A DNA stretch of 64,000 nt from Patescibacteria group bacterium (GTDB lineage: Bacteria; Patescibacteriota; Patescibacteriia; UBA1558; UBA10009). How positions within the stretch are numbered: the first letter of the stretch is position 1; the number at the start of each line of letters is the position of its first letter. The notes beneath the pieces are model-generated. The model saw only the letters and a program-made list of their open reading frames with translations. It was not told the DNA's origin and did no database searches. Location: assembly GCA_018818425.1 (NCBI GenBank), contig JAHISB010000002.1:2819-66818 (forward strand). Direction: 5' to 3'. Shown piece by piece: positions 60-58,626 of this stretch. A program made the position numbers and the translations under genes.

Positions 60-599
60 ATGGAATTAAAATCGCAGAGAATAAAGGCATCTTCAATGCT
101 AACCTTATTTACTAAAAGTCCAGATGGGATTACCAATGCTGAAATTAGGGAACGATTTGGTTATCCAGATCCTGAATACCCAAAATTGAAAATAATTCAT
201 CAAACTATTAATAATGGCAAAGACAATGCTATGGGCTTTCATTTCACCATAGATGAAAATAGCGATATGCTTTTAATCGCTAAGGGTGGTGAAACTTTTG
301 GTTATTATAGTCTTGATTTTTTAAAACAGAAAGCAGTTGAGAAAATTGGCAATGGTTTAATCCTTGTTTTAGCTGAAACAAAAAAACAAAAAGGTCACGA
401 ATTTTTTTATTATAAGGAAGCTTATATTCTTAAAGATATTGATCCTAAGAAATTTTTAGCACATTCAAAATATGATATTAGATTAGGAATTTACCATAGT
501 GGCAAGCTTGCTGGCACGCTTCATGACCATGGTTCAGCCTTTCGTATTACTCAAAAATCAATCCCTGATTTTTTTAGAATTAAAAGGAAAATACTTTAA
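60..599 (+). CDS. hypothetical protein; candidate type II restriction endonuclease partner of the adjacent methyltransferase
   Basis: 179 aa ORF with ATG at 60. Convergent with the MTase gene, and the two stop codons overlap (596-599). Possible D...ExK-like segment (IDEN...VLAETKK). AT-rich like the rest of the island. No confident family match by eye. Confidence 0.35.
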   Translation: MELKSQRIKASSMLTLFTKSPDGITNAEIRERFGYPDPEYPKLKIIHQTINNGKDNAMGFHFTIDENSDMLLIAKGGETFGYYSLDFLKQKAVEKIGNGLILVLAETKKQKGHEFFYYKEAYILKDIDPKKFLAHSKYDIRLGIYHSGKLAGTLHDHGSAFRITQKSIPDFFRIKRKIL

Positions 600-2470
600 T
601 TCTTTCTTAAAACTACAATACTCTCTTTATTCATAGTTTCTTCCAATTCACCAGCAATATTTGTCGGTGAGTTTTTTTTAGGCATTCTTTTGCCAGGAAT
701 ATTTCTGATAATTATATCTTCACAGGCCAAACCAATATTTTCTCCTAATTCTGCGATTATAAAATCGGTAGGTATCCTTACTTGTTTTACCATGCGGTTG
801 CCGATTACTAAACAGAAGTATTTATTCTTTTTTAATATTTTATGGGCTTGTTTTAAGCATTTATTTAAGTCAACGTAGAAACTAAGTACCTCCTTAGCTC
901 TTTTATCATCCTTTTTTCTAATTTGATCTATTGTTTGGTTTAAATAATCAGAATTTAGATTGTGCTTTAATTCTTTAACAGCTTTGCCGCCTAAAAGTAT
1001 ATTATCAACTTTTGAAGCCTCACTTTGATCTTTAAAAATATCAATCCATTGCGCTGAAAGCCTGGAAAATTGTCCATAGGCCACAGTTGTTCTACTGTCG
1101 CCATATGGCGGAGAAGTTAAAATAAAGTCAATAGAATTTTCTTTAATGCCATTATCTTTAGATGAGTCGCTAAAAATAATTTTAGTCCAAGTTTTTTTAT
1201 CAACATTTTTCTCAAATTCGCCCATAGCTTTAATATTGTTTTCAGTTTTCTTTTTGAATATTTCCAGAACATTAGGATTGTATTTTTCCAATACTTCTTT
1301 TTTAATTCTTACCAATTTAAACTCGCCATTCTTTGTATTAGAAGCCAGTCGTACTGTTTCACTAAATCCAACTAAAAAGAAATTCTGAATATTTTTATTT
1401 TTAATCTCTTTTATAGCTTTTTTAATTTTTGCTAATTCAATAATAACCTTATCTTTAAACCAGAAATCAATATTTAGAAATTCAGGTTTTTTAATCTGAT
1501 TTTTTTTAATTTTTCTTATCCTATCTAGTAACTTAAAATATTCATTCTGAAGTTTTGATGATGATATTTCAGTAGTTTTTGCTTTTGCTAAAAAAATTGC
1601 CAAAGGATTAAGATCTATGCCATAAGAGTTTCTGCCTAATAATCTGCTTTCTATTAGCGCTGTACCTGACCCACAGAAAATATCGCAAATTGCATCACCC
1701 TTTTTGCTGTAATTTTGTAAAAGCCGGCGTGCCACTTGTGGGATAAACATCGCCGGATATGTATGCAAACCATGCGTATATGATTTAGTTTTTTCACCGC
1801 GAAAATCCCATGAGTAGTCAATTCTGCGAGTGTATTTTTCATTGCTTGTTTTATCCTCTTCAATGTCTTTTTCTATATTTCTAATAATTTTCACCACAAC
1901 GCCCCTTACTTCAACTTCTTTTCTGTAAAAAGGAAACAAGGTAGGATTTGCCGGCTGTAGCCGAAATCTATCTTTTTCACGATATAATTTTTTTAAGGTG
2001 GCTTCATTATCATCAATTATAGCTACAACCATTTCACCATTATCAGCTGTCACTTGTTTTTTTAAAACAACAATATCACCATCAAAAATACCTTCATCAA
2101 TCATGCTGTTACCTTGGACTCTTAAAGCGTAGTGGTTGTGATAATTATGAAAATTATCTTTAGTTATGGTTATGGTTTCGTCTGGCGCTTCCACTGCTTC
2201 TATGGGCTGTCCGGCGGCAATAGTGCCAATTAGGGGAATTTCTATAGTATTATTTTGGTTTGTTTTTAGCTCTAAACCTCGTGATAGATGCTCATTTTTA
2301 ACCAAAAACCCTTTATCTATCAAAGCGTCAATATGCTGATATACCCCAGATAGGGCCTTCAGCTTAAAATACCTCTTTATTTCTTCAAAAGTAGGGGAGA
2401 TACCTTTCTTATTTATGTATTTTTTGATGTAATCGTAGATTTCCTTCTGTTTTTTAGTTAGGGTTGGCAT
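596..2470 (-). CDS. LexA-like repressor (HTH + S24 peptidase) fused to an amino (N6-adenine/N4-cytosine) DNA methyltransferase
   Basis: Continuous 624 aa ORF. N-terminal ~200 aa match LexA: winged HTH (LTKKQKEIYDYIKKYI...GISPTFEEI...HIDALIDKGFL), canonical cleavage site IAAGQPI, Ser in GNSM and Lys in ATLKKL. The C-terminal ~415 aa carry MTase motif X-I (HTYPAMFIPQVARRLL...DIFCGSGTALIE) and motif IV (ILTSPPYGD), i.e. alpha-like order with a TRD between them. ATG at 2470. Confidence 0.75.
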   Translation of the reverse strand: MPTLTKKQKEIYDYIKKYINKKGISPTFEEIKRYFKLKALSGVYQHIDALIDKGFLVKNEHLSRGLELKTNQNNTIEIPLIGTIAAGQPIEAVEAPDETITITKDNFHNYHNHYALRVQGNSMIDEGIFDGDIVVLKKQVTADNGEMVVAIIDDNEATLKKLYREKDRFRLQPANPTLFPFYRKEVEVRGVVVKIIRNIEKDIEEDKTSNEKYTRRIDYSWDFRGEKTKSYTHGLHTYPAMFIPQVARRLLQNYSKKGDAICDIFCGSGTALIESRLLGRNSYGIDLNPLAIFLAKAKTTEISSSKLQNEYFKLLDRIRKIKKNQIKKPEFLNIDFWFKDKVIIELAKIKKAIKEIKNKNIQNFFLVGFSETVRLASNTKNGEFKLVRIKKEVLEKYNPNVLEIFKKKTENNIKAMGEFEKNVDKKTWTKIIFSDSSKDNGIKENSIDFILTSPPYGDSRTTVAYGQFSRLSAQWIDIFKDQSEASKVDNILLGGKAVKELKHNLNSDYLNQTIDQIRKKDDKRAKEVLSFYVDLNKCLKQAHKILKKNKYFCLVIGNRMVKQVRIPTDFIIAELGENIGLACEDIIIRNIPGKRMPKKNSPTNIAGELEETMNKESIVVLRKN

Positions 2471-9235: not shown

Positions 9236-10150
9236 ATGTGGTTTATAATCGCCATTATTTCAGTTTTTTTATTTGCTGTAACTGCTGTAGTGGATAAGTT
9301 TTTACTTTCTAAATCTCCATTAATCCCTATCAGTTACGCTTTCGTCATCTCTTTACTGGGCGCTTTAGCTTCAGTAGTTTTGGTGATTTTTGAGAAAGGA
9401 TTTTATTTTCCAGCCCAGCATTTTTTGGCTTTATTCATAGGCGGCGCTGGTTTTTATTTTGCTGTTTATTTTATGTATTTGGCAGTAGTCAAAAACGAAG
9501 TTTCTAGAGTCAACCCGATGATCAACAGTCTGGCGCCGGTAGTTATATATTTTTTAACTATGGTTTTAGCTGTCGAGCTAATCAGCGCCAGAAAATTATT
9601 AGGGGCAGCCGTAGTGATTAGCGGCGGCTATTTACTTTCGCAAGTTGGGTTAAAGAAAGCTCAACTCCATAAATCAGCTTTAGTTTTGATAATTTTAGCT
9701 GCCATTATGTTCGGAATATCGAATACTTTTAGTAAAATGGCCTATGATCAGCTGCCGTTTTTAACGTCCTTTATTTGGATTAGATGGCTGACTTTACTGA
9801 CTGCCTTAGTTTTTACTACTTTGATAGGCGGCTGGTCTAAAATATCTTTTAAAAGGAAAAAACAGCGTCAGACTCCAGCTAAAAAAAAGAATCCTTGGCC
9901 AGCTTTGGTTATTGGCCAGGTCAGCGGGGGCGCGGCCGTTATTTTGTTTCAGTATGCTATCAAACTCGGCAGCGTTACCATTGTCACAGCCCTCCAGGGT
10001 TTGCAATATTTTTTCTTGCTCCTGCTTACTATTCTTCTTTCCAAAAAATTTCCCCAGATTTTACAAGAAGCTATTGGCCCTGCCGTAATTAAAAAAAAGT
10101 TATTATATTGTTTAATTTTAGCTATTGGAGTAATTTTATTGCTGGTTTAA
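9236..10150 (+). CDS. DMT/EamA-like permease (10-TM membrane protein)
   Basis: 304 aa. Two ~5-TM halves separated by a basic loop (KRKKQRQTPAKKKN), typical of drug/metabolite transporter architecture. Confidence 0.45.
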   Translation: MWFIIAIISVFLFAVTAVVDKFLLSKSPLIPISYAFVISLLGALASVVLVIFEKGFYFPAQHFLALFIGGAGFYFAVYFMYLAVVKNEVSRVNPMINSLAPVVIYFLTMVLAVELISARKLLGAAVVISGGYLLSQVGLKKAQLHKSALVLIILAAIMFGISNTFSKMAYDQLPFLTSFIWIRWLTLLTALVFTTLIGGWSKISFKRKKQRQTPAKKKNPWPALVIGQVSGGAAVILFQYAIKLGSVTIVTALQGLQYFFLLLLTILLSKKFPQILQEAIGPAVIKKKLLYCLILAIGVILLLV

Positions 10151-10207
10151 TTAGTTGAATACTCACAAATTTATTGCGAATAATCGCGAACCTCTTTAAC
10201 ATCTTCT

Positions 10208-11200
10208 ATGAAAAAAAGATTCAAAAAATGGTTAGGCATTATTATTTTACTTTTTTTAATCTACCTAGTTTATTGGCTTTATACTGTCGATTTTTCTCAA
10301 GATAAAGAAGTAGAGTTTGGCGTAACCTTCAGCAATAAATATGCTCAAGAATTATCTTTAGATTCTCGCCAGGTTTTAATAGCTATTTTAGATGATTTAA
10401 AAGTTAAAAAGTTTCGTTTAATGGCCTACTGGGACGAAATTGAACAATTGCAAGACAGTTATAATTTCAGCCAGCTCGATTGGCAGCTCCAGGAGATTAG
10501 TCAGCGCCAGGGCGAAGTTATTTTGTCTATCGGCCACCGTCTGCCGCGCTGGCCAGAATGCCATTGGCCCGGCTGGACCTTTCAGCTTAGCCGGGAACAG
10601 CGCCAGCAGAAAATTTTAGAGCTTTTAGAAAAAACAGTAAAACGCTATCAAAATAATTCTGTTATCAAGGCCTGGCAAATAGAAAACGAACCATTTTTAA
10701 AAGTTTTTGGCGAATGCCCCAAGCCGGATAAAGATTTCTTTAAACAGGAGGTTCAGCTAGTCCGTTCATTGGATAATCGGCCCGTTATTATAACCGAAAG
10801 CGGCGAACTTTCTACCTGGCTTAGAGCCGCTAAACTGGCGGATTATGTTGGCAGCAGCGTTTATCGGATTACCTGGAATAAGCGCTGGGGTTATTTTTAT
10901 TATCCTCTGCCCCCCTCGCACTATTATTTAAAAGCCCAAATAGTCAGATTGCTGACTTCAGCTAAAGGTGTTTTTGTCAGCGAAATGCAAATGGAGCCGT
11001 GGCTGGGCATGCCTGCCCTGCTAACGCCTTTAAGCGAACAATATCATTCAATGAATGTCCAGCAGTTTCAAAAAAATCTTAATTATGCCAAAAGAACCGG
11101 CTTATCGCCGAATTATTTGTGGGGAGCGGAATGGTGGTATTGGCTTAGGGAGCAAGGTGATGGCAGCATCTGGCAGTTGGCTAAAGAGATTTGGCGATAA
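10208..11200 (+). CDS. membrane-anchored glycoside hydrolase, TIM-barrel (GH5-like)
   Basis: 330 aa. N-terminal TM, then WQIENEP (catalytic acid NEP motif) and ITESG (nucleophile-like TE) at GH5-like spacing. Confidence 0.5.
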   Translation: MKKRFKKWLGIIILLFLIYLVYWLYTVDFSQDKEVEFGVTFSNKYAQELSLDSRQVLIAILDDLKVKKFRLMAYWDEIEQLQDSYNFSQLDWQLQEISQRQGEVILSIGHRLPRWPECHWPGWTFQLSREQRQQKILELLEKTVKRYQNNSVIKAWQIENEPFLKVFGECPKPDKDFFKQEVQLVRSLDNRPVIITESGELSTWLRAAKLADYVGSSVYRITWNKRWGYFYYPLPPSHYYLKAQIVRLLTSAKGVFVSEMQMEPWLGMPALLTPLSEQYHSMNVQQFQKNLNYAKRTGLSPNYLWGAEWWYWLREQGDGSIWQLAKEIWR

Positions 11201-11204
11201 AACG

Positions 11205-11440
11205 TTTTGTCTTTCGACTCGTCGCTTTGCTCCTCGCTCAAGATATTCGACTCCTACTATGAGTGGTCGGAGTTTCTGAAGCGCAGCGAAGAAACGAAGA
11301 CTACCACTCGGCCTTGAGCTAGTGGCCGAAAGGTGAGCGGAGCCGAGCGATAGCGAGGCGGAGTCGAATAGTGGTACTGGCTCAAAGAACAGGGCGATAG
11401 CAGTATTTGGCAGCTGGCCAAAGAGATTTGGCCGGGCTAA
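11205..11440. repeat. imperfect ~170 nt palindrome followed by a diverged direct copy of the last ~73 nt of the upstream GH gene
   Basis: 11128-11200 (gene 3' end) and 11367-11440 are ~80% identical and in direct orientation. Between them, arms gctcaag.../...cttgagc and gagtggt/accactc pair. Both arms contain the CTCGGCT-N-CGCTC motif family. Confidence 0.6.
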
Positions 11441-11518
11441 GCCCGAGCGATTAAGTTGAGCTTGCCTTAAGCTTAATGGTCAAATTAAGGCAAAAGATGT
11501 TATAATTATCATTATCAT

Positions 11519-12583
11519 ATGACAGTCAGCTATAAAAAAATTATAAATATTTTTAGTCTTTCGCCGGAACGTCATCAAAAAGTAAAGAATCAGATCGCCG
11601 AAGAAGCCAAAGGCGATTTGGATTTTTACGTTCTTTCGGTGCTGTCCGGCGTAATTATTACCTTTGGCCTGATTATTGATAATACGGCCATGGTCATCGG
11701 CGGGATGCTGTTGGCGCCTCTAGTCTGGCCGATGCTGGCTTTGGGTTTGGCTATTACCAGAGGGAGCATCAGATCACTTGAAAGTTCCCTTTTTACCATA
11801 GTAAAGATAAGCGTTGTAATTATCATAACTTCTTTTTTGATTGGCTGGGTTTCGCCTTTTAATGAATTCGGTCGGGAGGTTCTTTCCAGAACCCAGCCCA
11901 CCATTGTAGAATTAATGGTGGCGTTTTGCGCCGGTTTTGTGGCCGCTTTTGTTATCGGGCACCCGGGCCTGGGCAGTTTTATTGCGGGTGTGGTGATTGC
12001 CGCGGCGATTGTGCCGCCTTTGTGCGTGGCCGGCCTTTCGATAGCTCATCAAAATTTAGCCCAAGCCGGCGGAGCGTTTTTACTGTTTACTTCCAATTTA
12101 ATTGCCATAATTTTATCCTCCACCATTTATTTTTTGCTGGCAAAGTTCAAGCCTATTTTCACCAAGGAGGGTAGAAAAAGAAGAATCAGCAATATTATTT
12201 GGCTGCTGGTTTTTTTAATGGTAATTTTAATACCGCTGTTAGTTATTACCAAAGATATTATTTCTCAAAATAAGCAGTATTACATAACCCAGAAAACTTT
12301 GCTGGCTAATTTAAAAGAGGGCAAGATAGCCGAACTGGAGCTTAAAGAAAAAGACGATGTTTTATTTATCACCGCGACTTTAAGAGCCGAGAGAAATTTA
12401 ACCAGCTGGGAATTAGATTATTTAGCCGATCATATTTCTCAAGCTTTAAATAAATCGGTTAATTTGCAAATTACAGTTATCCCCACTATGCAGGGCGGTA
12501 AGATTATCGAGGCCGGTCCAGCCATGCCGCCGGCTGACGCTGATTTTAATCAAAACCAAATTTTTCCTAAAACTAAACAATAA
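11519..12583 (+). CDS. hypothetical integral membrane protein (DUF389-like)
   Basis: 354 aa, ~8 TM. VIGGMLLAPLVWPML segment resembles the DUF389/TIGR00341 hydrophobic domain. Low certainty. Confidence 0.4.
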   Translation: MTVSYKKIINIFSLSPERHQKVKNQIAEEAKGDLDFYVLSVLSGVIITFGLIIDNTAMVIGGMLLAPLVWPMLALGLAITRGSIRSLESSLFTIVKISVVIIITSFLIGWVSPFNEFGREVLSRTQPTIVELMVAFCAGFVAAFVIGHPGLGSFIAGVVIAAAIVPPLCVAGLSIAHQNLAQAGGAFLLFTSNLIAIILSSTIYFLLAKFKPIFTKEGRKRRISNIIWLLVFLMVILIPLLVITKDIISQNKQYYITQKTLLANLKEGKIAELELKEKDDVLFITATLRAERNLTSWELDYLADHISQALNKSVNLQITVIPTMQGGKIIEAGPAMPPADADFNQNQIFPKTKQ

Positions 12584-20334: not shown

Positions 20335-20715
20335 ATGAAAAGCGATTTTATACAATCTTATAGGGATCTTATTGTATGGCAGAAGTCGATGGACCTAGTT
20401 AAAGTCATTTACGAATTGACTAAGCAATTTCCGGAAACAGAGAAATTTGGGCTAATATCCCAAATGAGAAGAGCGGCAGTTTCAATTCCTTCTAATATTG
20501 CCGAAGGGTTCAGAAGAGGCGCTAGAAAGGATTACCGTTACTTTCTGATAATAGCATTTGGCTCTGGCGCGGAATTAGAAACCCAAATAGAAATCTCTAA
20601 AAGGCTGGAATTTTGCAATAATTTTAACTATTCAAAAGTCGATGGTTTACTAGGGGAAATAATGAAAATATTGAATGTATTTATAAAAAAGCTAGGCAAT
20701 AGTACTACAACCTAG
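20335..20715 (+). CDS. four-helix-bundle protein (23S rRNA intervening-sequence protein family, TIGR02436-like)
   Basis: 126 aa. YRDLIVWQKSMDLVKVIYELTKQFPETEKFGLISQMRRAAVSIPSNIAEG...GSGAELETQIEIS closely matches the family consensus. Confidence 0.8.
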   Translation: MKSDFIQSYRDLIVWQKSMDLVKVIYELTKQFPETEKFGLISQMRRAAVSIPSNIAEGFRRGARKDYRYFLIIAFGSGAELETQIEISKRLEFCNNFNYSKVDGLLGEIMKILNVFIKKLGNSTTT

Positions 20716-25349: not shown

Positions 25350-25973
25350 ATGTTGATAACTTCGACAGAAGAATTAATCACTTCAAACAGCAGAGAGCTG
25401 TTTATTTCGGCGCAGGATACCGCCGGCCAGGCCGGGGATTTTTTCAGCCATTTAGACTGGTCCGCGCCCAGCTGGGATTTATTCATTATTCTGTTTTTTT
25501 TAATAGCTTCGTTAATTTACGGCCTGTCGCTGGGCAGGGACAGAATCGTAATTATCCTAGTTTCTATTTATATGGCGCTGGCCGTGGTGGATTACGCGCC
25601 TTTTGCCGAGAAATTGATTGAAGGAACCTCTTTGGAGGGTTTCTTTTTATTTAGGGTAGTTTCGTTTATAGCGGTGTTTCTGCTGTTATTTTTTATTCTG
25701 GCCCAGTCGGCCCTTTTAAACACCTTTGCTTCCCGCAATGCTTCCCGCAGCTGGTGGCAGACCATTGTTTTCAGCATTCTCCACGTAGGGCTGATTATCA
25801 GCATCACCCTGTCGTTTCTGCCGGAATCGTTTGTTAACGAACTTTCGGATTTTACCTACCGGCTGTTTGCCACGGAAACGGCCAGGTTTGTTTGGATAAT
25901 TCTGCCCATCATTGCCATGGCCTTTATCAGAAAACCCCGCCGCAGACGGCGCGACATTGACGAATATCTTTAA
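25350..25973 (+). CDS. hypothetical membrane protein
   Basis: Track start is TTG 25344; ATG at 25350. ~5 TM. C-terminal KPRRRRRDIDEYL. Confidence 0.45.
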   Translation: MLITSTEELITSNSRELFISAQDTAGQAGDFFSHLDWSAPSWDLFIILFFLIASLIYGLSLGRDRIVIILVSIYMALAVVDYAPFAEKLIEGTSLEGFFLFRVVSFIAVFLLLFFILAQSALLNTFASRNASRSWWQTIVFSILHVGLIISITLSFLPESFVNELSDFTYRLFATETARFVWIILPIIAMAFIRKPRRRRRDIDEYL

Positions 25974-25974
25974 T

Positions 25975-26112
25975 CCGAATATATCACTAATAAATCACGA
26001 ATAATCTCACGAATATGTCACGAATTCACGAATAATCGCGAATAAAAAACTATTAGCGAATTCGTGTGATATTAGAGATGCAGATTAGCGATTTATTAGA
26101 GATATATTCGTG
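25975..26112. repeat. intergenic word palindrome (tcacgaata / tattcgtga words)
   Basis: Forward words in 25980-26040, reverse-complement words in 26050-26112. Confidence 0.5.
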
Positions 26113-27717
26113 TTATTTTATTTTGAACACACTGCTGTCATCAGTTTCAATTTTTTTTTCAAAGAATTCCGGACTCGCTTCCAGGAATTTTTTAAAATCC
26201 TGGTAGATGAAGTAATCGTTAATCCAGATGTATTCAGAATTAAATTGAGTTTTGATGGTTTGGGCGATCATAGCCGGTTGCCGCTGTTCGGCCATACAGC
26301 CCGAGGCCGTTAAATCATCCAAATCAATTAAATCGGCCGGCGCGTTGCAGGCGATTGATTTTTCGGTGATGTTGCGCCAAAGCCAGTAGAGGTTTTTGTC
26401 GTATAAATACATAAAGGTCGGGTCCAGGCCGACAATATAGTAGTTATGGTGATTATGAAAAAATAGTCTGGGGAAAGCATCCCAGGCAGTATGAAAAACT
26501 ATTGATTTTTCAGGGGTGTTGTTTTCAAGCCATTCGGCTGTTTGTTGGTAGCGGCTAATGGGGCAGGCATTTTTATACCCTAAATAGGCTTTTTTTACTG
26601 GTAAAAAGATAAGTGAAAAAAAAGTTAAAATCAATAAAGCTTTGAAAACTGGTTTTCTTATATATTTTTTAAAATCATTTATTAAGTTCTGTTGTTCATA
26701 AGATACCAGTGATTTTTTAAGCAAAGTAAAAGTATGAGCTGTTAAAAGAATTGTAAACGGGACAAAGTATTCTATAAAACGGATTGATTCAATAGTCCAG
26801 AGGCCGTAAAATATTGCTAAAATAAAGAGGGTATAGAGCAATATTTTTTCATTCATAGAGGCAATTTTCTTTTTTAAATAAATAGTTAGGATCCCACATA
26901 TAATTATCATGAAAGAAACTAAAAAAGTATCTTGAAAAAAAGTCAAAGAAGCATGAGCCTGTTCTTGTCCAACAGCCACTCCAGCATTTATTAAATTTAG
27001 ATAAAGAAGATCAAATGTTTGCTGAAAATTAAGAATAACAATATTTGGAAAGTCAGGCCTAATAATCAAAGTTAAAATTAGTGCCAGAAGAGGATAAGTA
27101 TAATATTTTAAATACAGTTTTTTAGTAAACAACCATTCAATAACCGTATAGATAATAATAATGATAAATATTTGTAACCAGCCAGCGTAACTAAGACAAT
27201 AAATTGTTGAAGAAAAAAATAAGAGTCCAAATTTTTTATTATGAACTGCATAAAGAATAATTAGAGTAAGAATAATAGAGATTAAAAAAGGCCGGGAAAT
27301 AAATAGTCGGAAAAAGAATATTGAAGAAGAAAATAATAAGAGGGTCAGCCACAATGTGTGATTTTTTATATCTAGTTTTTTTAAAAAAAATATAAAAAAG
27401 TTTATAAAGAAGAGCAATAATATAAGAACTAAAATTTTTACTGCAATAATTGGGTTTAAAAAAAGAAGCAAAGGATAAAGCAATAAATGGTAACCCAACG
27501 ATAAATCCGCAGGGAACAAGCTCCAGCTGGTATATTGAAACCAAGGAAGCTCGTTAATAACGTTTAAACCGTCCGTATTAAATAATTGAGAAATTTTAAG
27601 ATGATAAAAAATATCAGTGCCAATTATTGTTGGGCGAATAAATAAAATAAAAGTAAATAAAATCAGCAATAATAGATTGTAATAGATAATGGGCTTATTT
27701 TTGATAGCCTTGAACAT
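26113..27717 (-). CDS. GT-C-like integral membrane protein (ArnT/PMT-like putative glycosyltransferase), very AT-rich
   Basis: Track start is TTG 27759; ATG at 27717 gives MFKAIKNK... and sits ~7 nt after a minus-strand TATAAT. 10+ TM with C-terminal soluble domain. GC far below neighbours. Confidence 0.4.
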   Translation of the reverse strand: MFKAIKNKPIIYYNLLLLILFTFILFIRPTIIGTDIFYHLKISQLFNTDGLNVINELPWFQYTSWSLFPADLSLGYHLLLYPLLLFLNPIIAVKILVLILLLFFINFFIFFLKKLDIKNHTLWLTLLLFSSSIFFFRLFISRPFLISIILTLIILYAVHNKKFGLLFFSSTIYCLSYAGWLQIFIIIIIYTVIEWLFTKKLYLKYYTYPLLALILTLIIRPDFPNIVILNFQQTFDLLYLNLINAGVAVGQEQAHASLTFFQDTFLVSFMIIICGILTIYLKKKIASMNEKILLYTLFILAIFYGLWTIESIRFIEYFVPFTILLTAHTFTLLKKSLVSYEQQNLINDFKKYIRKPVFKALLILTFFSLIFLPVKKAYLGYKNACPISRYQQTAEWLENNTPEKSIVFHTAWDAFPRLFFHNHHNYYIVGLDPTFMYLYDKNLYWLWRNITEKSIACNAPADLIDLDDLTASGCMAEQRQPAMIAQTIKTQFNSEYIWINDYFIYQDFKKFLEASPEFFEKKIETDDSSVFKIK

Positions 27718-31433: not shown

Positions 31434-31735
31434 TATCACCGATCTATCACAGATGAATCACCGATCTATCACGGATAAATCACTGATAAATCACCGATCT
31501 ATCACGGATAAATCACTGATAAATCACAGATCTATCACGGATAAATCACCGATAAATCACCGATCTATCACCGATAAATCACGGATGAATCACTGATTGA
31601 TAATATAAAGTATCGGTGATTCATCCGTGGATATCCGTGATAGATCCGTGTATCTCCGTGATTTATCGGTGAGCCATCTGTGCGCTATCTGTCGATAGAC
31701 CCCGAGCTTATCGAGGAGTGAACTATCGGTGATTT
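31434..31735. repeat. ~300 bp imperfect palindrome built from ~25 tandem 10-bp units (ATCAC[C/G/T/A]GAT[C/A]TA)
   Basis: ~16 direct units (31434-31598), AT-rich centre (tgataatataaagta), then ~9 reverse-complement units (31610-31700). Extends into the last codons of dusB. Same TCACNGAT words at 17490-17570 and 21082-21125. Confidence 0.8.
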
Positions 31736-32696
31736 ATCCGTGAATTTCAGCCAAGATTTTTTCAATATCCTTAATACTTTCCACTCTTACCAACTCTGTT
31801 CTTAAATCAGAAGCATTTGGCAAACCTTTAACGTACCAGAGCAGGTGTTTGCGCAGTTCAATAAGGCCATGTTCACCTTTTGTTTTAAGAGCTAGTTGAG
31901 CATGCTTTAAGATAATTTGTTTTTTTTCTGGCCAACTGGGTTCTTCAAATTTTCCGGTTTTTAAATAGTCTTTGATTTGCTGAAAAAGCCAAGGTCTGCC
32001 ATAAGTTCCTCTGGCAAGGCCCAGGCCGTCAGCTTTGGTTTTTTTTAATAATTCTTTAGCGTCTTCAGGGGAGTTGACTCCGCCGTTGGCCAGGATTGTG
32101 CCTTTAAAGTATTTTCCGGCCTCTTTAATCATTTGATAGTCAATTTCGCCGCTAAAGCCCTGTTCATAAGAACGGCCGTGGATCATTACAGCGCTAATCG
32201 GCAGGTCAGCCATTTTTTTTAGAAAATCAATAACCGTTACTTTTTTGCCGATTTTTGATTTAATGGAAGTTCTGACTTTAACTGAAACCGGAAGCTTGGT
32301 GTTATCAATCGTCTGTTTTATTAGCTGATAGCATAAATTTAAATCTCTTATCAAAGTTACGCCGCCGCCGTGGCCGACAACTTTGCGGGCCGGACAGCCA
32401 AAGTTAATGTCAATGCCGCCGGCTCCCGACTTTTCGACAATCCGGGCAGCTTCACCGAATTTAGCCGGGTCCTTGCCGAAAAGTTGAACCACTAACGGTT
32501 GTTCAGCTTTTTCAAATTTTAACATCTCCAAAGTTTTTTTGCCTTCAAAAAAAAGCCCGTCCGCCGAAGTCATTTCCGAATAAACAACATCGGCGCCGTA
32601 TAAACGGCACAGCTGCCGAAAAGCCGAGTCGGTAATGCCGGCCATGGGCGCCAAGGCCAGAATCGGTTTATTTATTTGTTGCCAAAAGTTGGGCAT
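31734..32696 (-). CDS. dusB: tRNA-dihydrouridine synthase (DusB-like)
   Basis: 320 aa. LAPMAGITDSAFR, TIM-barrel FMN motifs (GIDINFGCPARKVVGHGGG), C-terminal helical domain. Confidence 0.85.
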   Translation of the reverse strand: MPNFWQQINKPILALAPMAGITDSAFRQLCRLYGADVVYSEMTSADGLFFEGKKTLEMLKFEKAEQPLVVQLFGKDPAKFGEAARIVEKSGAGGIDINFGCPARKVVGHGGGVTLIRDLNLCYQLIKQTIDNTKLPVSVKVRTSIKSKIGKKVTVIDFLKKMADLPISAVMIHGRSYEQGFSGEIDYQMIKEAGKYFKGTILANGGVNSPEDAKELLKKTKADGLGLARGTYGRPWLFQQIKDYLKTGKFEEPSWPEKKQIILKHAQLALKTKGEHGLIELRKHLLWYVKGLPNASDLRTELVRVESIKDIEKILAEIHG

Positions 32697-34545: not shown

Positions 34546-34639
34546 GCTAAACTCCTAACAAAAGAACAAGGCACCTCAGCGTATCTCAGCGGTTATCAGT
34601 GAATAATTCTTGATTTTTGATCCTCAATCATCAATCCTC

Positions 34640-34672
34640 CCAGCCAGAGGCTGGTCGGCCTTTGGCCGAAAT
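34640..34672. repeat. short variant of the GC-rich tandem-hairpin element
   Basis: cccagccagaggctggtcggcctttggccgaaatc equals copy B with the inner 28 nt deleted. Confidence 0.6.
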
Positions 34673-34719
34673 CATCAATCCTCATTGTCCTAATTGCCAA
34701 AAAAAGGTATAATTTAGCC

Positions 34720-35244: not shown

Positions 35245-35528
35245 TAGTCTAAAAGTTTTCTTTGAATTTTTTGTGTAGAGTATGAACAATGGGATAATCG
35301 TTGTATTAACAATACCGGTTAGAGAAATTCCAAATCCAAAATCACAAATAACAAATAAATTCCAAATTCCAAAAATAAAATATCACTGATCATCACTAAG
35401 ATATGCTGACCATTTGCTGATACACGCTCGCCTTGAGCGAAGTCGAGAGGCGAAGCAGGCTGATAATCCGCGGATATCAGCGTACCTCGGCGCATCTCGG
35501 CGGTTATTGGTGAATAATTCTCAATCCT

Positions 35529-35591
35529 CCCAGCCAGCCTTCGGCCGTGAGCTCAGGCCGAACGGAGGCTGGTCGGCCTCTGGCCGAAATC
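35529..35591. repeat. full-length GC-rich tandem-hairpin element (copy B)
   Basis: cccagccagccttcggccgtgagctcaggccgaacggaggctggtcggcctctggccgaaatc. 35529-35574 is the exact reverse complement of 54130-54175. Confidence 0.85.
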
Positions 35592-35601
35592 CTCAACATC
35601 A

Positions 35602-38142
35602 ATGCCTCTCATTGCCGACATTTTTTTAAAAAGTTTTTCTACTTTGCTGGCCAATCCATGGGCCATCACTTTTCTAATAGCGATAATTTTTTTTATTGTT
35701 TTGGCAGCAATGGTCAATTTAATCAGAAAAAGTTTTGCCAAAGGCAGCCGTTTGCCGACTGCGCTGCAGCAGCAAATTTTATTGATTTCGGTGCCTAAAG
35801 AGTCATTGCGCGACAAAGAAAGAGCGGCTACCCCCCAAGATATCCAAGATGATATTGGAGCGGCCGAAAATTTATTTTCGGTTTTAGGAAGTTTGTCGGC
35901 CCAGCGGGGCGCCAGGCCATGGCTTTACGGCCGGACCGACCATTTTTCTTTTGAGATGGTGGCTCAAAATGGCCAGATCTTTTTTTATGTGGCAGCGCCT
36001 AATTATTTAAGCGATTCCTTGAAACAGCAGCTGTTAGCGGTTTATCCTCATGCGCATATTGAAGAAGTCAGCGATTATAACTTTTTTTCGCCGCAAGGCG
36101 CGGTTTTGGGCGCCTATTTAAAATTAGGCCGGGAGTTTATTTTTCCCATCAAGACTTTTAAAAAAATGGAAGGCAGCGATCCTTTGGAGGGCTTAGTTAA
36201 TCCTTTAAGCAAGGTGGCTAAGACAGACGGAGCGGCCATTCAATTTATTGTTCGCTCGGCTTATAAAAAGTGGCATCGCAAAGGCATGCGGGTAGCCCGC
36301 GAGATGCAGCAGGGCAAAGCTATGGCTATGGCTCTGCGCCAGGCGGGACTGGGCAATATTTTTGACAAATTTTTTGGTTTATTTAGTTTTATTTTCAGTT
36401 TTTTTAGAACTAAGCCCCAAGATGAGCGCAATTTAGACAAACTGGAAGAACAATACCGGCTTTCACCTATGGAAGAAGAGGCGGTTAAAGGCATAGAAGA
36501 AAAAACCAGCAGGGCCGGTTTTGATGTTAATGTCAGAATTGTAACTTCGGCAGTTAAGCGGGAGCAGGCCAAAAATTATTTAGATAATATTATTAATGCT
36601 TTCGGCCAGTATAATATTTATCAGTATGGCAATGGTTTTAAAAAAATCGCCAAAGTTAATATTGATCGCTTAGTTTCCGATTTTATCAGCCGCTCTTATC
36701 ATTCTAAATACCATTTATTGCTTAACAGCGAAGAAATGACCAGCTTGTGGCATTTGCCTCTGCCTTCCACCGGAGCTCCCAATATTCATTGGCTGGAAGC
36801 CAGAAAAGCCCAGCCGCCCGTCAACCTGCCACAGGAAGGGATTTTGCTGGGCGAGAATATTTACCGCGGAGTTACAACTCCTATAAGAATAAAAGAAGAA
36901 GACCGCCAAAGGCACGTTTATATTATCGGCAAATCGGGCACCGGCAAGTCGGTTCTGCAGGCCAATATGATTATTCAGGATATGCAGAACGGCGAAGGCG
37001 TTTGTGTAATCGATCCGCACGGCGATTTAGTGGAAGCGGTTTTAGAGCATGTGCCGCCGGAACGGGCCGAGGACGTGATTTTATTTGACCCGGCCGACTA
37101 TCAGCGGCCCATGGGCATTAATATGCTGGAGTTTCATAATCCCGAGCAAAAGACCTTTGTTATTAACGAAATGATAAAGATATTTGATAAGCTTTACGAC
37201 TTAAAAGCCACCGGCGGCCCCATGTTTGAGCAGTATATGCGCAACGCCATGCTGTTAATGATGGAAGATTCCCAGTCGGGCTCAACTTTGTTGGAAATTC
37301 CCAAAGTTTTGGCCGATGCCAATTTTAGAAGATACAAACTGTCCCGGTGCGTTAATCCGGTGGTTAAAGATTTTTGGGAAAAAGAAGCGGAAAAGGCCGG
37401 CGGCGAAGCCTCGCTGGCCAATATGGTGCCTTACATAACCAGCAAGCTGACCCCTTTTATCTCCAGCGATTTAATGAGGCCGATTATTGCCCAGCAGAAA
37501 AGTTCTTTTAATTTTCGGGAAGCTATGGACGGCCAGAAGATTATTTTAGTTAAATTATCCAAAGGCGCTATCGGCGAAATGAGCTGTAATTTGCTGGGCA
37601 TGGTTATTGTCGGCAAAATTTTAATGGCGGCCCTTTCCCGGGTAGATATCCCCCAGGAACGGCGCAGAAGTTTTTATTTATATATTGATGAGTTTCAGAA
37701 TTTTATCACCGATACCATTTCCGTTATTCTTTCCGAAGCCCGCAAGTATAAGCTTTGCCTGACCATTGCCCACCAGTACATCGGCCAGCTGGTCAAAAAT
37801 AACGATACCTCTATCCGCGACGCTGTAATGGGCAATGCCGGAACTATGATTGCTTTTAGAATCGGCCCTGATGATGCCGAAATAGTGGCTAAACAGCTGG
37901 CCCCGGTTTTTAATGAGTACGATGTAATTAATATTCCTAAATATAATGCTTATCTTAAGCTGTTAATTGATAATCAAAACCCGCCGGCTTTTAATATCAA
38001 GCCCCTGCCTCCCCAGCTAGGCGATAAAGCCATAGCCGCTAAAATCAGAGAGCTTTCCAGATTAAAATACGGCCGGGATCGAGAAATAGTTGAACGGGAA
38101 ATTTTAGAAAGAGTGAAGGCGGTTCAAAAGCCGGAAGTGTGA
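35602..38142 (+). CDS. TraD/VirD4 (type IV coupling protein)-like P-loop ATPase with N-terminal TM
   Basis: 846 aa. Walker A IIGKSGTGKS, Walker B-like LYIDEFQNF, TrwB/TraD-type C-terminal domain. The N-terminal ~400 aa is unassigned. Confidence 0.5.
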   Translation: MPLIADIFLKSFSTLLANPWAITFLIAIIFFIVLAAMVNLIRKSFAKGSRLPTALQQQILLISVPKESLRDKERAATPQDIQDDIGAAENLFSVLGSLSAQRGARPWLYGRTDHFSFEMVAQNGQIFFYVAAPNYLSDSLKQQLLAVYPHAHIEEVSDYNFFSPQGAVLGAYLKLGREFIFPIKTFKKMEGSDPLEGLVNPLSKVAKTDGAAIQFIVRSAYKKWHRKGMRVAREMQQGKAMAMALRQAGLGNIFDKFFGLFSFIFSFFRTKPQDERNLDKLEEQYRLSPMEEEAVKGIEEKTSRAGFDVNVRIVTSAVKREQAKNYLDNIINAFGQYNIYQYGNGFKKIAKVNIDRLVSDFISRSYHSKYHLLLNSEEMTSLWHLPLPSTGAPNIHWLEARKAQPPVNLPQEGILLGENIYRGVTTPIRIKEEDRQRHVYIIGKSGTGKSVLQANMIIQDMQNGEGVCVIDPHGDLVEAVLEHVPPERAEDVILFDPADYQRPMGINMLEFHNPEQKTFVINEMIKIFDKLYDLKATGGPMFEQYMRNAMLLMMEDSQSGSTLLEIPKVLADANFRRYKLSRCVNPVVKDFWEKEAEKAGGEASLANMVPYITSKLTPFISSDLMRPIIAQQKSSFNFREAMDGQKIILVKLSKGAIGEMSCNLLGMVIVGKILMAALSRVDIPQERRRSFYLYIDEFQNFITDTISVILSEARKYKLCLTIAHQYIGQLVKNNDTSIRDAVMGNAGTMIAFRIGPDDAEIVAKQLAPVFNEYDVINIPKYNAYLKLLIDNQNPPAFNIKPLPPQLGDKAIAAKIRELSRLKYGRDREIVEREILERVKAVQKPEV

Positions 38143-38262: not shown

Positions 38263-38787
38263 ATGCTCTATATATCAACTATCCTGGTTTTTATAATTTT
38301 TATTATTTTATTGAACTTCGCCTATGCCGGCGTTTCCGCGGCGCCATGGGTGCCCTCCCGGAAAAAAGATTATCAAAGAGTTTTAGAACTGGCCGGGATT
38401 AAAAATGGAGACACTGTCTACGACCTGGGCAGCGGCGACGGGCGCTGGCTTTTTTATTTTGCTAAGCATTCCCCGGCCCAAGAGATCAGGGGCTATGAAA
38501 TTTCTTTAATCATGTATTTAATTTGCTGGATAAAAAAGTTGTTCAGCGGATATCCACAGGTAAAATTATCCTTTGGCAATTTTTATAAATTTAATTTAAG
38601 TAAAGCTGATGTGCTGATTTGTTTTTTAACTCCCCGGGCCATGAAAAAATTATTGCCTAAATTAAAAAAAGAAATGAAGCCCGGCTCCAGATTAGTTTCC
38701 TACGCTTTCACCATGCCTAATGTGGAAGCTGAAAAAGTAAGCAAGGTTAGCCAAAAAAGCGTGTCTATTTATCTTTATAGATTTTAG
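38263..38787 (+). CDS. small class I SAM-dependent methyltransferase with N-terminal TM
   Basis: 174 aa. Motif I VYDLGSGDGRWLFYFAKH. Confidence 0.5.
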   Translation: MLYISTILVFIIFIILLNFAYAGVSAAPWVPSRKKDYQRVLELAGIKNGDTVYDLGSGDGRWLFYFAKHSPAQEIRGYEISLIMYLICWIKKLFSGYPQVKLSFGNFYKFNLSKADVLICFLTPRAMKKLLPKLKKEMKPGSRLVSYAFTMPNVEAEKVSKVSQKSVSIYLYRF

Positions 38788-38903
38788 AAGCCGTTAAGTA
38801 AATTATGCCTTAAGTTCTTTAATTCCGTTGAGTTTGCCGCAGCAACAACTTAATACTTAACGGACTTAACGCTTTATATTTCAATTTAATTTCAATTTTA
38901 TTG

Positions 38904-39521: not shown

Positions 39522-39608
39522 CCGATAATAAAAATTTTGCCTTTTATCATTCCGAGCTTACCTGAGGAATCTTGTTACTTTAACGATAATCATGTTGTGT
39601 CAAGATCC

Positions 39609-39657
39609 CTCCGCGTTGGCCGTTCGGCCGCGAGCTCACGGCCGAGTGGTCGGGATG
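39609..39657. repeat. diverged copy of the GC-rich tandem-hairpin element (copy D orientation)
   Basis: ccgcgttggccgttcggccgcgagctcacggccgagtggtcggg shares ttcggccg(c/t)gagctca(c/g)ggccga with copies B and D. Confidence 0.6.
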
Positions 39658-39708
39658 ACATTTTAAGCGAAATTTTTTATTTGCCAATTTATCAATCAAT
39701 CGTTATAA

Positions 39709-39836
39709 TATACCCAATTGCTTTAATAAAATAGAAAATACTCCAAAGCGATGCGTTAATATTAATACTAATATTAGATAAAATAATTCAAATTATTCAA
39801 TTAGCAAAATCGGAATTATTAAAGCGAAGGAGTATA
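39709..39836. repeat. ~130 bp AT-rich dispersed element, copy 1 (directly upstream of dnaX)
   Basis: Near-identical to 62841-63006. Ends AAAGCGAAGGAGTATA (SD-like AAGGAG) 9 nt before the dnaX ATG. Internal inverted 7-mers atactcc / ggagtat. Confidence 0.85.
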
Positions 39837-50039: not shown

Positions 50040-50040
50040 T

Positions 50041-50160
50041 CTTGTATCGCTGTTCGTGTATCGTATATCGTGTATCGTAATCGTGTATCGTGTATCTCTA
50101 TCATCATTATTAAATAATTCAATAATTAACGATACACGATACACGAACAGCGATATACGA
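50041..50160. repeat. intergenic word palindrome (cgtgtatcg / cgatacacg words)
   Basis: Forward words 50041-50100, reverse-complement words 50120-50160. Confidence 0.6.
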
Positions 50161-56241: not shown

Positions 56242-56251
56242 GTTGCTAGGC

Positions 56252-58604: not shown

Positions 58605-58626
58605 AAATCCATTGAGAGTTCATTAC

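What the first reader, a model, noticed from the sequence alone, without database searches (positions are those of the whole stretch)
11128..11440. Duplicated 3' end of the glycoside-hydrolase gene separated by a 170-nt palindrome carrying CTCGGCT-N-CGCTC motifs
The last 73 nt of the GH gene (11128-11200, encoding ...EWWYWLREQGDGSIWQLAKEIWR*) reappear ~80% identical at 11367-11440 (in frame: ...WYWLKEQGDSSIWQLAKEIWPG*). Between the two copies lies an imperfect palindrome. Its arms contain CTCGTCGCTTTGCTCCTCGCTCAAG on one side and the reverse-complement CGCTCGGCTCCGCTC on the other. This is the signature of an element that inserted into, or recombined at, the gene's 3' end and regenerated a terminus.
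Basis: seen in the sequence. Interest (0 to 1): 0.55.

Follow-up and report, generated by a model that had tools for sequence, protein, structure and literature searches.

The report
Hairpin element with duplicated gene tail
A small, protein-less, hairpin-forming DNA element sits just after a sugar-cleaving enzyme gene of an uncultured Patescibacteria bacterium; the gene's displaced old tail lies behind the element, and the same arrangement at the same codons recurs in at least six other lineages, so it is a recurring site-specific event, not a one-off accident.

Summary
Window 11123-11195 and 11360-11432 are 79% identical direct repeats. They flank about 165 nt that fold into one closed, imperfect stem-loop, which is clearer as + strand RNA than as DNA.

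Syntenic relatives have only 35-59 nt between the glycoside hydrolase (GH) gene and the DUF389 gene, where the window has 318 nt. This is therefore a lineage-specific insertion of about 237 nt. The downstream copy is colinear with the ancestral gene end and spacer. It is untranslated, because TGG has become TAG.

The same architecture occurs in six other Patescibacteria GH loci: intact GH, its own stop, a 117-150-nt structured body, then a second tail starting exactly at E-W-W-(Y/F)-W.
- Their bodies are one homologous family with covarying stems.
- A 5' arm of the body is complementary to the EWWYW-coding site.
- Body identity is 68-93%, against 59-62% for the gene itself.

The window's body is only a distant relative. 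It shares the core motif GAGKGGTCGGR, the 12-mer GAGCGATAGCGA at the same place, and a weak covariance-model match.

No recombinase, transposase or true reverse transcriptase lies in the 64 kb. The likeliest reading is a small non-autonomous element that integrates, or is recombined in, at the conserved block with a substitute gene tail. The mechanism is unresolved. A cis-acting RNA switch is the main rival.

The parts
10208..11200 (+). Functional GH gene (330 aa; cellulase/GH42-like), ending in the substitute tail and a new stop
   Evidence: ORF. Pfam Glyco_hydro_42, 25.9 bits. 1689 homologues, named cellulase-family glycosylhydrolase or beta-galactosidase in Patescibacteria.
11123..11200 (+). 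Copy 1: the expressed tail. Codons E-W-W-Y-W...EIWR, stop TAA at 11198-11200. The homology with copy 2 ends at 11195.
11201..11365 (+). Non-coding body (165 nt): one closed stem-loop domain that encloses two inner hairpins
   Evidence: RNA fold z=-3.3 on the + strand. No Rfam family. Weak match to covariance model R1 at 11240-11373, 9.4 bits, E=0.013 over 801 nt.
11213..11242 (+). Left arm of the closing stem (complement of GAGCG-type units)
11261..11272 (+). Core motif GAGTGGTCGGAG, shared with every member of the element family
   Evidence: Motif GAG[GT]GG+TCGG[GA] has 7 hits in 1.0 Mb, all inside these elements; shuffles give 0-4.
11273..11295 (+). Inner hairpin GTTTCT...AGAAAC
   Evidence: It is aligned to hairpin 1 of the family by cmsearch.
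11303..11333 (+). Inner hairpin module (GGCC...GGCC with flanks), repeated at 39620-39650 on the - strand
   Evidence: 27/31 identical, blastn E=1.6e-5. Pattern search gives 2 hits against 0 expected.
11335..11368 (+). Right arm of the closing stem, built of 5-6-nt GAGCG-like units. It contains GAGCGATAGCGA (11345-11356), the conserved right-end motif of the family.
   Evidence: The same 12-mer lies at the same position before copy 2 in L175. The family consensus there is GGAGCGAAGCGACG.
11360..11440 (+). Copy 2: the displaced resident tail, untranslated (E*WYWLKEQGDSSIWQLAKEIWPG*)
   Evidence: It is colinear with the GH end and spacer of L083.
11441..11518 (+). Resident GH-DUF389 spacer with promoter-like TGGTCA-18-TATAAT (11477-11506), conserved in L083

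Best explanation
The feature is an insertion-duplication made by a small (about 120-170 nt), protein-less, hairpin-rich element. The element occupies a fixed site in a conserved Patescibacteria GH gene.

The join lies at the invariant E-W-W-Y-W coding block (GAATGGTGGTAYTGG). Upstream of the element the gene reads through a substitute copy of its last 22 or so codons into a new stop. Downstream, the resident tail survives as an untranslated, decaying remnant that still abuts the original spacer and promoter.

It works like integrative elements that restore the gene they interrupt, such as phage 21 and e14 at icd, or islands at tRNA 3' ends. It differs in having no recombinase of its own.

I infer that it is moved in trans or by the host's own recombination after DNA uptake. 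In the main family, recognition of the site involves the element's 5' arm, which is complementary to the EWWYW-coding site.

Shown:
- the insertion relative to relatives;
- recurrence at the same codon;
- homology and covarying structure of the elements;
- decay of copy 2;
- absence of a recombinase in 64 kb.

Inferred:
- mobility;
- the direction of the event;
- the recombination mechanism.
For: (1) Empty sites. L083 and L003 have the same gene order (EamA-GH-DUF389-permease) with 59- and 35-nt spacers, against 318 nt here. The GH end and spacer of L083 align with copy 2 onward. Of 143 evaluable GH loci from the genome and metagenome scans, only the window and L122 have a duplicated tail.

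(2) Recurrence. L122, L173, L174, L175, L176 and L177 all show GH, stop, a 117-150-nt body, then a second tail starting at E-W-W-(Y/F)-W, with spacing 198-231 nt. They were found through short ORFs that read from the body into the remnant.

(3) Copy 2 is the resident tail. In L173 and L174 its stop overlaps the next gene's ATG, as in relatives without the element. Copy 2 of L122 ends EARKLF*, like L061.

(4) One element family. Alignment A6 is 78% identical per column, with 35 predicted pairs, 5 of them compensatory. Bodies are 68-93% identical, while the GH genes upstream of EWW are 59-62% identical.

(5) The 5' arm a' pairs with the EWWYW site and tracks the Y/F codon of the functional copy. 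Two columns covary: A-T/T-A and C-G/T-A.

(6) Links between the window and the family.
- The core motif has 7 hits per Mb, all inside these elements.
- The 12-mer GAGCGATAGCGA lies at the same place as in L175.
- There is a collinear covariance-model match, E=0.013.

(7) In the window, 9 of 12 differing codons between the copies are synonymous. Simulated in-situ duplication with a neutral copy 2 gives P<=0.004, even with transitions only. Hence one copy evolved as a coding end elsewhere.

(8) Related cores sit in non-GH intergenic sites: L122 1501-1593 (28.7 bits, circularly permuted) and window 39.6 kb. The core therefore is not tied to GH.
Against: - No recombinase, transposase or true reverse transcriptase is present in the 64-kb window (Pfam). 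None of the loci shows one next to the element.
- No free, circular or viral copy was found.
- The window's body is not recognised by model R1 with default filters. It is only about 50% identical to the family and lacks the target-complementary arm. Its membership rests on short motifs.
- In L122, pieces of the body match nearby sequences of the same contig: a permuted intergenic element 2 kb upstream, and a 16-nt exact inverted match inside the DUF6938 gene. That looks like templated patchwork rather than a discrete element.
- In L175, L176, L173 and L174, differences between the copies are mostly non-synonymous. That fits in-situ duplication followed by decay, not import of a foreign tail.
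- The strong conservation of the body could reflect function rather than mobility.
Confidence: 0.42

Rival explanations
1. It is a cis-acting RNA device, not a mobile element. The body is a conserved 3'-UTR structure. Its arm a' can pair either with a1 (inside the GH coding region) or with a2 (the start of the remnant). A ribosome translating a1 would free a' to pair with a2, which changes termination, processing, or translation of the downstream gene. That gene's start abuts or overlaps the remnant's stop. On this view the duplicated tail is kept because a2 is the alternative partner, as in three-segment attenuators.
For: - The body is more conserved than the gene (68-93% vs 59-62%), and its stems covary.
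- a' tracks the codon variant of a1.
- a2's first 15 nt stay nearly intact in L175 and L174 while the rest drifts; in L177 they carry an insertion.
- The + strand folds better than the - strand in both loci tested, with G-U pairs.
- In six loci an ORF stays open from near the GH stop through the body to the remnant's stop, which overlaps the next gene's ATG in L173 and L174.
Against: - The window member has no a' and has a TAG in the remnant frame.
- No U-tract terminator is present.
- The element is absent from the closest relatives of both the window's and L122's GH. It would therefore have to be lost very often.
- L177's a2 carries an insertion.
- No expression data are available.
Confidence: 0.22
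2. These are independent recombination scars, not an element. DNA taken up from a related lineage, carrying a complete GH end plus its ordinary hairpin-rich 3' UTR, was joined by homology-facilitated illegitimate recombination or by aborted repair synthesis. The EWWYW block is a hot spot because it is the only near-identical stretch between diverged GH genes. GGAGCG-rich hairpins also offer microhomology to GGGGAGCGGAATGG.
For: - The synonymous-biased divergence in the window points to a foreign coding tail.
- GC-rich hairpins containing GAGCGAAGCG are about 6 times enriched in these loci and occur right after GH in L079 and L106.
- Homology-facilitated illegitimate recombination joins at 3-10-bp microhomologies, and efficient RecA exchange needs 25-35 bp of identity (PMC6382021).
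- Transformation can create duplications (PMC3784515, abstract).
- Other truncated GH tails that start at another conserved block (ELQAEPW), fused to unrelated ORFs, appeared.
Against: - Six loci share a homologous body with the same ends and the same arm a'. Independent captures of random 3' UTRs would not give this.
- In every case the junction lies exactly at the base of a closed hairpin domain.
Confidence: 0.18
3. It is a local replication error: template switching or snap-back synthesis duplicated the tail in place and filled the gap with locally templated pieces. Drift followed.
For: L122's body contains three locally matching pieces:
- a 19/20 inverted copy of the site 85 nt upstream;
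- a permuted copy of an element 2 kb upstream;
- an exact 16-nt inverted match 3.1 kb upstream.
In L122 and L175 the two copies are 86-91% alike.
Against: - For the window, P<=0.004 under this model.
- Local errors would not produce homologous bodies in six lineages whose GH genes are only about 60% identical.
Confidence: 0.1
4. It is a diversity-generating retroelement, with a template repeat and a variable repeat at the gene's 3' end.
For: Two about 75-nt repeats lie at the end of a gene. Such retroelements are common in Patescibacteria (PMC8144416, abstract). A bAvd-like gene lies at 20335-20715.
Against: - Only 6 of 13 differences fall at adenines of copy 2, and 1 at adenines of copy 1; all 13 differences are transitions.
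- No reverse transcriptase lies in the 64 kb.
- The downstream repeat is the ancestral gene end.
Confidence: 0.01

Closest known systems
Integrative elements that carry a substitute end of their target gene (phage 21 and e14 at icd of E. coli; genomic islands at tRNA/tmRNA 3' ends). From my own knowledge, not tested here.
   Same: The insertion lies inside the 3' part of a conserved gene. The gene stays intact through an element-side copy of its end. The displaced resident end remains as a direct repeat on the far side. The target is a highly conserved sequence reused in different hosts.
   Different: Those elements are kilobases long and encode an integrase next to the attachment site. Here the whole unit is 200-240 nt with no ORF, and no recombinase lies within 64 kb.
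Cis-mobilizable elements derived from integrative elements (attL-remnant-attR without an integrase). From my own knowledge.
   Same: Direct-repeat attachment sites flank a non-autonomous remnant.
   Different: Known examples are 1-14 kb decay products with no conserved structured core. Here the small body is itself the conserved part.
Bacterial MITE/REP-type intergenic elements (REP/BIME, Correia, RPE, NIME)
   Same: Small, structured, non-coding and repeated, with modules shared between intergenic sites (window 39.6 kb; L122 1501-1593).
   Different: Those elements make 0-10-bp target duplications and occur in many copies per genome. Here the duplication is 70-85 nt, runs from a fixed codon to the stop, and is tied to one gene.
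Guide-to-target base pairing in IS200/IS605 (4-nt guide) and in IS110 bridge RNAs
   Same: In the main family a segment of the element is complementary to its target site.
   Different: Here the complementarity is 15-19 nt, continuous, and to the coding strand of one gene. No TnpA or IS110 recombinase is present. The window member lacks the arm.
Transcription/translation attenuators with mutually exclusive pairings (1:2 vs 2:3)
   Same: Three segments (a1, a', a2) can form two exclusive stems, and the first lies in a translated region.
   Different: The arrangement sits at the 3' end of a gene rather than in a leader. No terminator U-tract is present, and no function has been shown.
Homology-facilitated illegitimate recombination and transformation-generated merodiploids (PMC6382021, PMC3240628, PMC3784515)
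   Same: These routes can insert foreign DNA next to a homologous anchor, or duplicate a segment after DNA uptake, without a dedicated recombinase.
   Different: Those are sporadic events. They do not explain a conserved inserted body with fixed ends.

Membership tests
GH-tail element family defined here (L122, L173-L177) | Lies between the GH stop codon and a second GH tail that starts at E-W-W-(Y/F)-W | tested here: met
   Window 11201-11365 lies between the stop at 11198-11200 and copy 2 at 11366. The same layout holds in six loci.
GH-tail element family defined here (L122, L173-L177) | Core motif GAGGGGGTCGGGG followed by a hairpin, and right-end motif GGAGCGA(A/TA)GCGACG just before GAATGG | tested here: met
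   GAGTGGTCGGAG at 11261-11272 followed by the hairpin at 11273-11295. GAGCGATAGCGA at 11345-11356 is identical to the right end of L175.
GH-tail element family defined here (L122, L173-L177) | Overall match to the covariance model of the family | tested here: inconclusive
   No hit with default filters over 64 kb. With filters off on 801 nt the best hit is 11240-11373, 9.4 bits, E=0.013, against 146-169 bits for members and 28.7 bits for the permuted L122 copy.
GH-tail element family defined here (L122, L173-L177) | 5' arm a' complementary to GAATGGTGGTAYTGG | tested here: not met
   The best inverted match after the window's stop has 8-9 mismatches of 15, against 0-4 in members. The window's closing stem is made of GAGCG-type units instead.
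Site-specific integrative element with substitute gene end (phage 21/e14 type) | Direct repeats of the target gene's 3' part flank the insert, and the upstream copy keeps the ORF intact | tested here: met
Site-specific integrative element with substitute gene end (phage 21/e14 type) | Integrase or another recombinase encoded in the element | tested here: not met
   The 165-nt body has no credible ORF. Pfam scans of 60 ORFs across the window found no integrase, transposase or reverse transcriptase.
Site-specific integrative element with substitute gene end (phage 21/e14 type) | Same attachment site used in independent hosts | tested here: met
   Seven loci share the same codon, with GH genes only 51-62% identical at the nucleotide level.
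MITE / REP-like element | Many copies per genome and a short (0-10 bp) target duplication | tested here: not met
   The arms are unique in 64 kb. Only a 31-nt module recurs. The duplication is 73 nt.
Diversity-generating retroelement | Template/variable repeat differences confined to template adenines, with a reverse transcriptase nearby | tested here: not met
   6 of 13 differences at adenines of copy 2, all 13 being transitions. No reverse transcriptase.
Intrinsic terminator | GC-rich hairpin followed by a U-tract | tested here: not met
   No terminator-like site on the + strand in 10900-11700. The right arm runs straight into copy 2.
Known RNA families (Rfam 15, including ribozymes and group I/II introns) | Covariance-model match | tested here: not met
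   No hit at E<=1 in 10000-12500. Only a tRNA in the whole window at gathering score. Nothing relevant in L122.
Integron cassette / attC | R''/R' core sites (RYYYAAC ... GTTRRRY) at the hairpin ends | tested here: not met
   On reading, neither end carries these cores.

The most novel reading that the evidence does not exclude
A previously undescribed class of tiny (about 120-170 nt), protein-less structured elements in Patescibacteria is bound to one codon block of one conserved gene. The element carries an arm complementary to that block. It sits between a regenerated gene tail and the displaced old tail, and it is conserved more strongly than the host gene.

It could be either of two things:
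- a nucleic-acid-guided mobile element that uses host recombination;
- a translation-sensing three-segment RNA switch (a1/a'/a2) whose second partner was created by duplicating the gene's own tail.
Probability: 0.3. Interest if true: 0.8.

Novelty: new variant of a known kind. Interest (0 to 1): 0.6.

Why it matters
If the element is mobile, it would be the smallest known unit that integrates into a protein gene while restoring it. It would have no enzyme of its own, and its target recognition appears to be written in a complementary arm. That offers a way to study how streamlined, naturally competent Patescibacteria exchange DNA.

If instead it is an RNA device, it shows a regulatory structure built by duplicating a gene's own tail.

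Either way, it supplies a concrete, searchable signature for annotating many Patescibacteria genomes: GH stop, then the core GAGGGGGTCGGGG, then GGAGCGAAGCGACG|GAATGGTGG. The short ORFs of 63-73 aa now called across the element are probably not real proteins.

Tried and rejected
Searches that found nothing
- Rfam on the locus, on the whole window and on L122: nothing relevant.
- Exact 24-mer and 31-mer of the hairpin in viral and JGI metagenome contigs: 0 hits.
- GH-site patterns in viral contigs, looking for a phage-borne attachment site: 0 hits.
- blastn of the window body against all loci: only itself.
- Literature searches found no description of such elements in Patescibacteria.

Hypotheses rejected
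- Diversity-generating retroelement: rejected on the substitution pattern and the lack of a reverse transcriptase.
- attC site, terminator, MITE: defining features not met.
- tRNA-like element: ARAGORN finds only tRNA-Gln at 41062.
- Tandem-repeat origin of the arms: Tandem Repeats Finder finds nothing. The 5-6-nt units are visible only by eye.
- Assembly artefact: rejected.

Tests that were uninformative
- Other local direct repeats in the loci turned out to be paralogue pairs or N-gap artefacts.
- Sliding-window identity to L083 shows no block of foreign DNA around the junction, but L083 is too distant to be informative.
- The 15-nt match between the window's left arm (reverse complement) and L122's right end scored above all 500 shuffles. 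I discounted it because GAGCGAAGCG is generally enriched in these hairpins.
- GH proteins with C-terminal extensions (L166, L169, L171) have lineage-specific hairpins after or within the gene end, but no duplication.
Full report
**1. The observation**

The 330-aa ORF 10208-11200 (+) is a cellulase/GH42-like glycoside hydrolase (GH). It has more than 1600 homologues, nearly all from Patescibacteria.

Its last 73 nt (11123-11195) recur at 11360-11432 with 79% identity and 237-nt spacing. This is far above chance: blastn E=1.7e-10 and z=22-25 against shuffles. No other gene of the window shows such a repeat.

In frame, the second copy reads E*WYWLKEQGDSSIWQLAKEIWPG*.

Between the copies, 11213-11368 forms one closed stem-loop with two inner hairpins.
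- As + strand RNA it is clearly better than shuffles: -69.7 kcal/mol, z=-3.3.
- On the - strand it is weaker: -58.1 kcal/mol, z=-2.5.
- As DNA it is barely significant: z=-1.6.

The identical sequence is found in an ENA MEGAHIT contig and in a Logan k=31 contig. An assembly artefact is therefore very unlikely.

**2. It is an insertion, and the downstream copy is the old gene end**

The closest relative with the same gene order (EamA-GH-DUF389-permease) is L083, at 73% aa identity. It has only 59 nt between GH and DUF389. L003 (60% identity) has 35 nt. The window has 318 nt.

The GH end of L083 (..IWSS*), its spacer and its promoter-like TGGTCA-N18-TATAAT align with copy 2 and what follows it. 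About 237 nt were therefore added, and copy 1 with its new stop is the regenerated terminus.

Copy 2 also matches the family consensus (LKEQGDSSIW) better than copy 1 does.

**3. The two copies of the window diverged as coding sequence**

Twelve codons differ between the copies. Nine differences are synonymous. By codon position the differences fall 2/2/9, and all 13 base changes are transitions.

I simulated a duplication in place, with the downstream copy then drifting neutrally. It gives at least 9 synonymous of 12 with P<=0.001 for kappa 4-10, and P=0.004 with transitions only. A model with both copies under coding selection gives P=0.24-0.48.

For this locus, one of the tails therefore spent most of the divergence as a functional gene end elsewhere. 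The alternative is that copy 1 was later replaced by a foreign allele.

**4. The event is recurrent**

The genome and metagenome scans gave 143 evaluable GH loci. Only one other, L122 (JGI), has a duplicated tail. Its GH is about 46% identical in protein to the window's, and the duplication starts at the same codon.

L122's annotation calls a 71-aa ORF that runs from the GH stop through the insert into the remnant. I searched this ORF against 1.84 billion representative proteins. The search returned six more short ORFs of the same kind.

Their contigs are L173 (NCBI), L174, L175 and L176 (ENA), and L177/L178 (JGI). All show the same layout:
- an intact GH with its own stop;
- a 117-150-nt body;
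- a second tail starting at E-W-W-(Y/F)-W, with spacing 198-231 nt;
- then the next gene.

In L173 and L174 the remnant's stop overlaps the next gene's ATG, which is the native arrangement in relatives without the insert.

The remnants decay. L177 is frameshifted, L175 has W->G, and the window has TGG->TAG. In L173-L176 most codon differences are non-synonymous.

**5. The inserted bodies are one structured family**

The bodies of L122 and L173-L177 align along their whole length. Their order of parts is:
- an arm a' complementary to GAATGGTGGTAYTGG;
- CACAGAGGGGGTCGGGG;
- hairpin 1;
- GT(R)TAGGAAAACAGCGA;
- a variable hairpin 2;
- hairpin 3 (AGAAACC..GGTTTCT);
- GGAGCGAAGCGACG, directly before GAATGG of the remnant.

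RNAalifold predicts 35 pairs, 5 of them with compensatory changes.

Arm a' forms 12-15 of 15 pairs with the site in the functional gene. It tracks that gene's Y/F codon (TAC, TAT, TTT, TTC), giving two covarying columns. It fits the remnant's site less well in L174, L175 and L177.

The bodies are 68-93% identical between loci, while the GH genes upstream of EWW are only 59-62% identical. The non-coding body is thus better conserved than the gene it follows.

A circularly permuted relative of the core lies in another intergenic region of L122 (1501-1593; 28.7 bits, E=1.3e-5).

**6. How the window's element relates to the family**

It is a distant relative, not a clear member.

Evidence for a relationship:
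- It has the same position and the same junction codon.
- It carries the core motif GAGTGGTCGGAG followed by a hairpin. This motif has 7 hits in 1.0 Mb of Patescibacteria DNA, all inside these elements, against 0-4 in shuffles.
- It carries the 12-mer GAGCGATAGCGA at the same place before the remnant as in L175.
- It gives a collinear but weak covariance-model match: 9.4 bits, E=0.013 over 801 nt, filters off.

Evidence against:
- There is no match with default filters.
- It is about 50% identical to the family.
- It has no arm a'. Its closing stem is built from GAGCG-like 5-6-nt units and their complement.

A second element of the window (about 39546-39661) shares the core motif and a 31-nt hairpin module.

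**7. What it is not**

- No Rfam family matches.
- It is not a U-tract terminator.
- It is not a diversity-generating retroelement: differences are not confined to adenines and there is no reverse transcriptase.
- It has no attC cores, and it lacks MITE-like copy number and short target duplication.
- No viral copy was found.
- Pfam scans of 60 ORFs across the 64 kb found no integrase, transposase or reverse transcriptase.

**8. Mechanism**

Most likely (confidence about 0.4): a small non-autonomous element, or element-bearing DNA from a related lineage, recombines into the GH gene at the invariant EWWYW block. The gene stays whole because a copy of its tail precedes the element, and the resident tail is left behind.

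This works like phage 21 or e14 at icd, or like islands at tRNA genes (my own knowledge). It fails the membership test for that kind, because no recombinase is present.

Spread by DNA uptake and the host's own recombination is conceivable. Transformation can create duplications (PMC3784515, abstract), and foreign DNA can be joined at 3-10-bp microhomologies next to a homologous anchor (PMC6382021). At about 21% divergence, however, ordinary RecA exchange is inefficient (PMC6382021). That favours either a site-specific step or exchange confined to the conserved block.

The main rival is a functional RNA (about 0.2). Segments a1, a' and a2 can form two exclusive stems, and a1 is translated, so the arrangement has the logic of an attenuator. 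The strong conservation of the body, the covariation of a' with a1, and the stronger fold of the + strand fit this view. The window member, which lacks a', does not fit it, and neither does the absence of the element from the nearest relatives.

Independent recombination scars (about 0.18) explain the window's foreign-looking tail. They also explain the enrichment of GAGCGAAGCG hairpins downstream of GH genes. They do not explain a homologous body with fixed ends.

Local template switching (about 0.1) fits L122, whose body contains locally matching pieces. It does not fit the window or the shared family.

**9. Verdict**

The recurrence turns a local oddity into a defined, searchable class. That recurrence consists of the fixed junction codon and the conserved structured body with a target-complementary arm.

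The mechanism and the window's exact membership remain open.

Limits of this work:
- The family rests on seven loci.
- The covariance model was built from four sequences with rough E-values.
- There are no read-level, expression or population data.

Noticed in passing
window 39546-39661: A second structured intergenic element lies between a hypothetical gene and a dnaX-like gene. It carries the same core motif (GAGTGGTCGGGA at 39644) and a 31-nt hairpin module that is 27/31 identical to 11303-11333 in opposite orientation. RNA fold z=-3.2 on the + strand and -4.1 on the - strand. It may be flanked by imperfect direct repeats ATTTTGCCTTTTATCA / ATTTGCCAATTTATCA.
   Followed up: partly
window 25971-26115, 31449-31746, 50040-50160, 56247-56389, 63021-63142, 38785-38878: Several 100-300-nt intergenic palindromes have arms made of short (5-11 nt) degenerate tandem units in opposite orientation, each with its own unit sequence. 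Most lie just after stop codons. The same style occurs after GH in another lineage (L171 2515-2627). Their origin and function are unknown.
   Followed up: partly
window 39709-39836 and 62841-63006: About 130-nt AT-rich segments, 91-97% identical, lie upstream of two genes (the dnaX-like gene at 39845 and the ORF at 63233). The motif AATAATTCAATAATT also occurs at 50108-50128.
   Followed up: no
window 35528-35579 and 54125-54176: A 52-nt sequence is 100% identical in inverted orientation at two places 18.6 kb apart. Further short repeats link 34573-34698 with 35484-35616.
   Followed up: no
window 58687-58989: A stand-alone 100-aa GIY-YIG nuclease ORF is flanked by 47-53-nt repeats (58619-58671 ~ 59006-59058). 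The repeat recurs at 51526-51573, upstream of recJ. It may be a small mobile nuclease cassette.
   Followed up: no
window 20335-20715: A gene of the 23S rRNA intervening-sequence protein / bAvd-like family (130 bits) lies between grpE and dnaK. No reverse transcriptase is present in the window.
   Followed up: no
window 60-2470: An MvaI/BcnI-family restriction endonuclease ORF lies next to a long ORF that combines LexA DNA-binding, S24 peptidase and N6/N4 DNA-methylase domains. This may be two genes read as one.
   Followed up: no
L122 1501-1593, 402-417: The intergenic element between the DUF6938 and EamA genes is a circularly permuted relative of the GH-tail body (S1-X-S1' versus S1'-loop-S1-X). 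The loop of the body's hairpin 1 is an exact 16-nt inverted copy of coding sequence (ISRFRR) in the DUF6938 gene, 3.1 kb upstream.
   Followed up: partly
P0248, P0249, P0253 (proteins; contigs not fetched): These are ORFs in which unrelated N-terminal parts (EamA-like, RecR-like, lipoyl-domain-like) are fused to the last 60-90 residues of a GH, starting near ..ELQAEPW. They may be further displaced GH tails with a junction at another conserved block.
   Followed up: no
L035 2681-2785: Covariance model R1 gives a 23-bit hit (E=0.0011, GC 0.66) inside the 5' part of another lineage's GH gene. It was not inspected.
   Followed up: no
L166 2488-2553, L169 2482-2601: In other GH loci the ORF is lengthened by lineage-specific hairpins inserted after ..KLF (for example the widespread 340-aa form ending NRTDIYVSEG). 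In L169 two 27-nt direct repeats, each itself a hairpin, flank a third hairpin. None of these loci has a tail duplication.
   Followed up: partly
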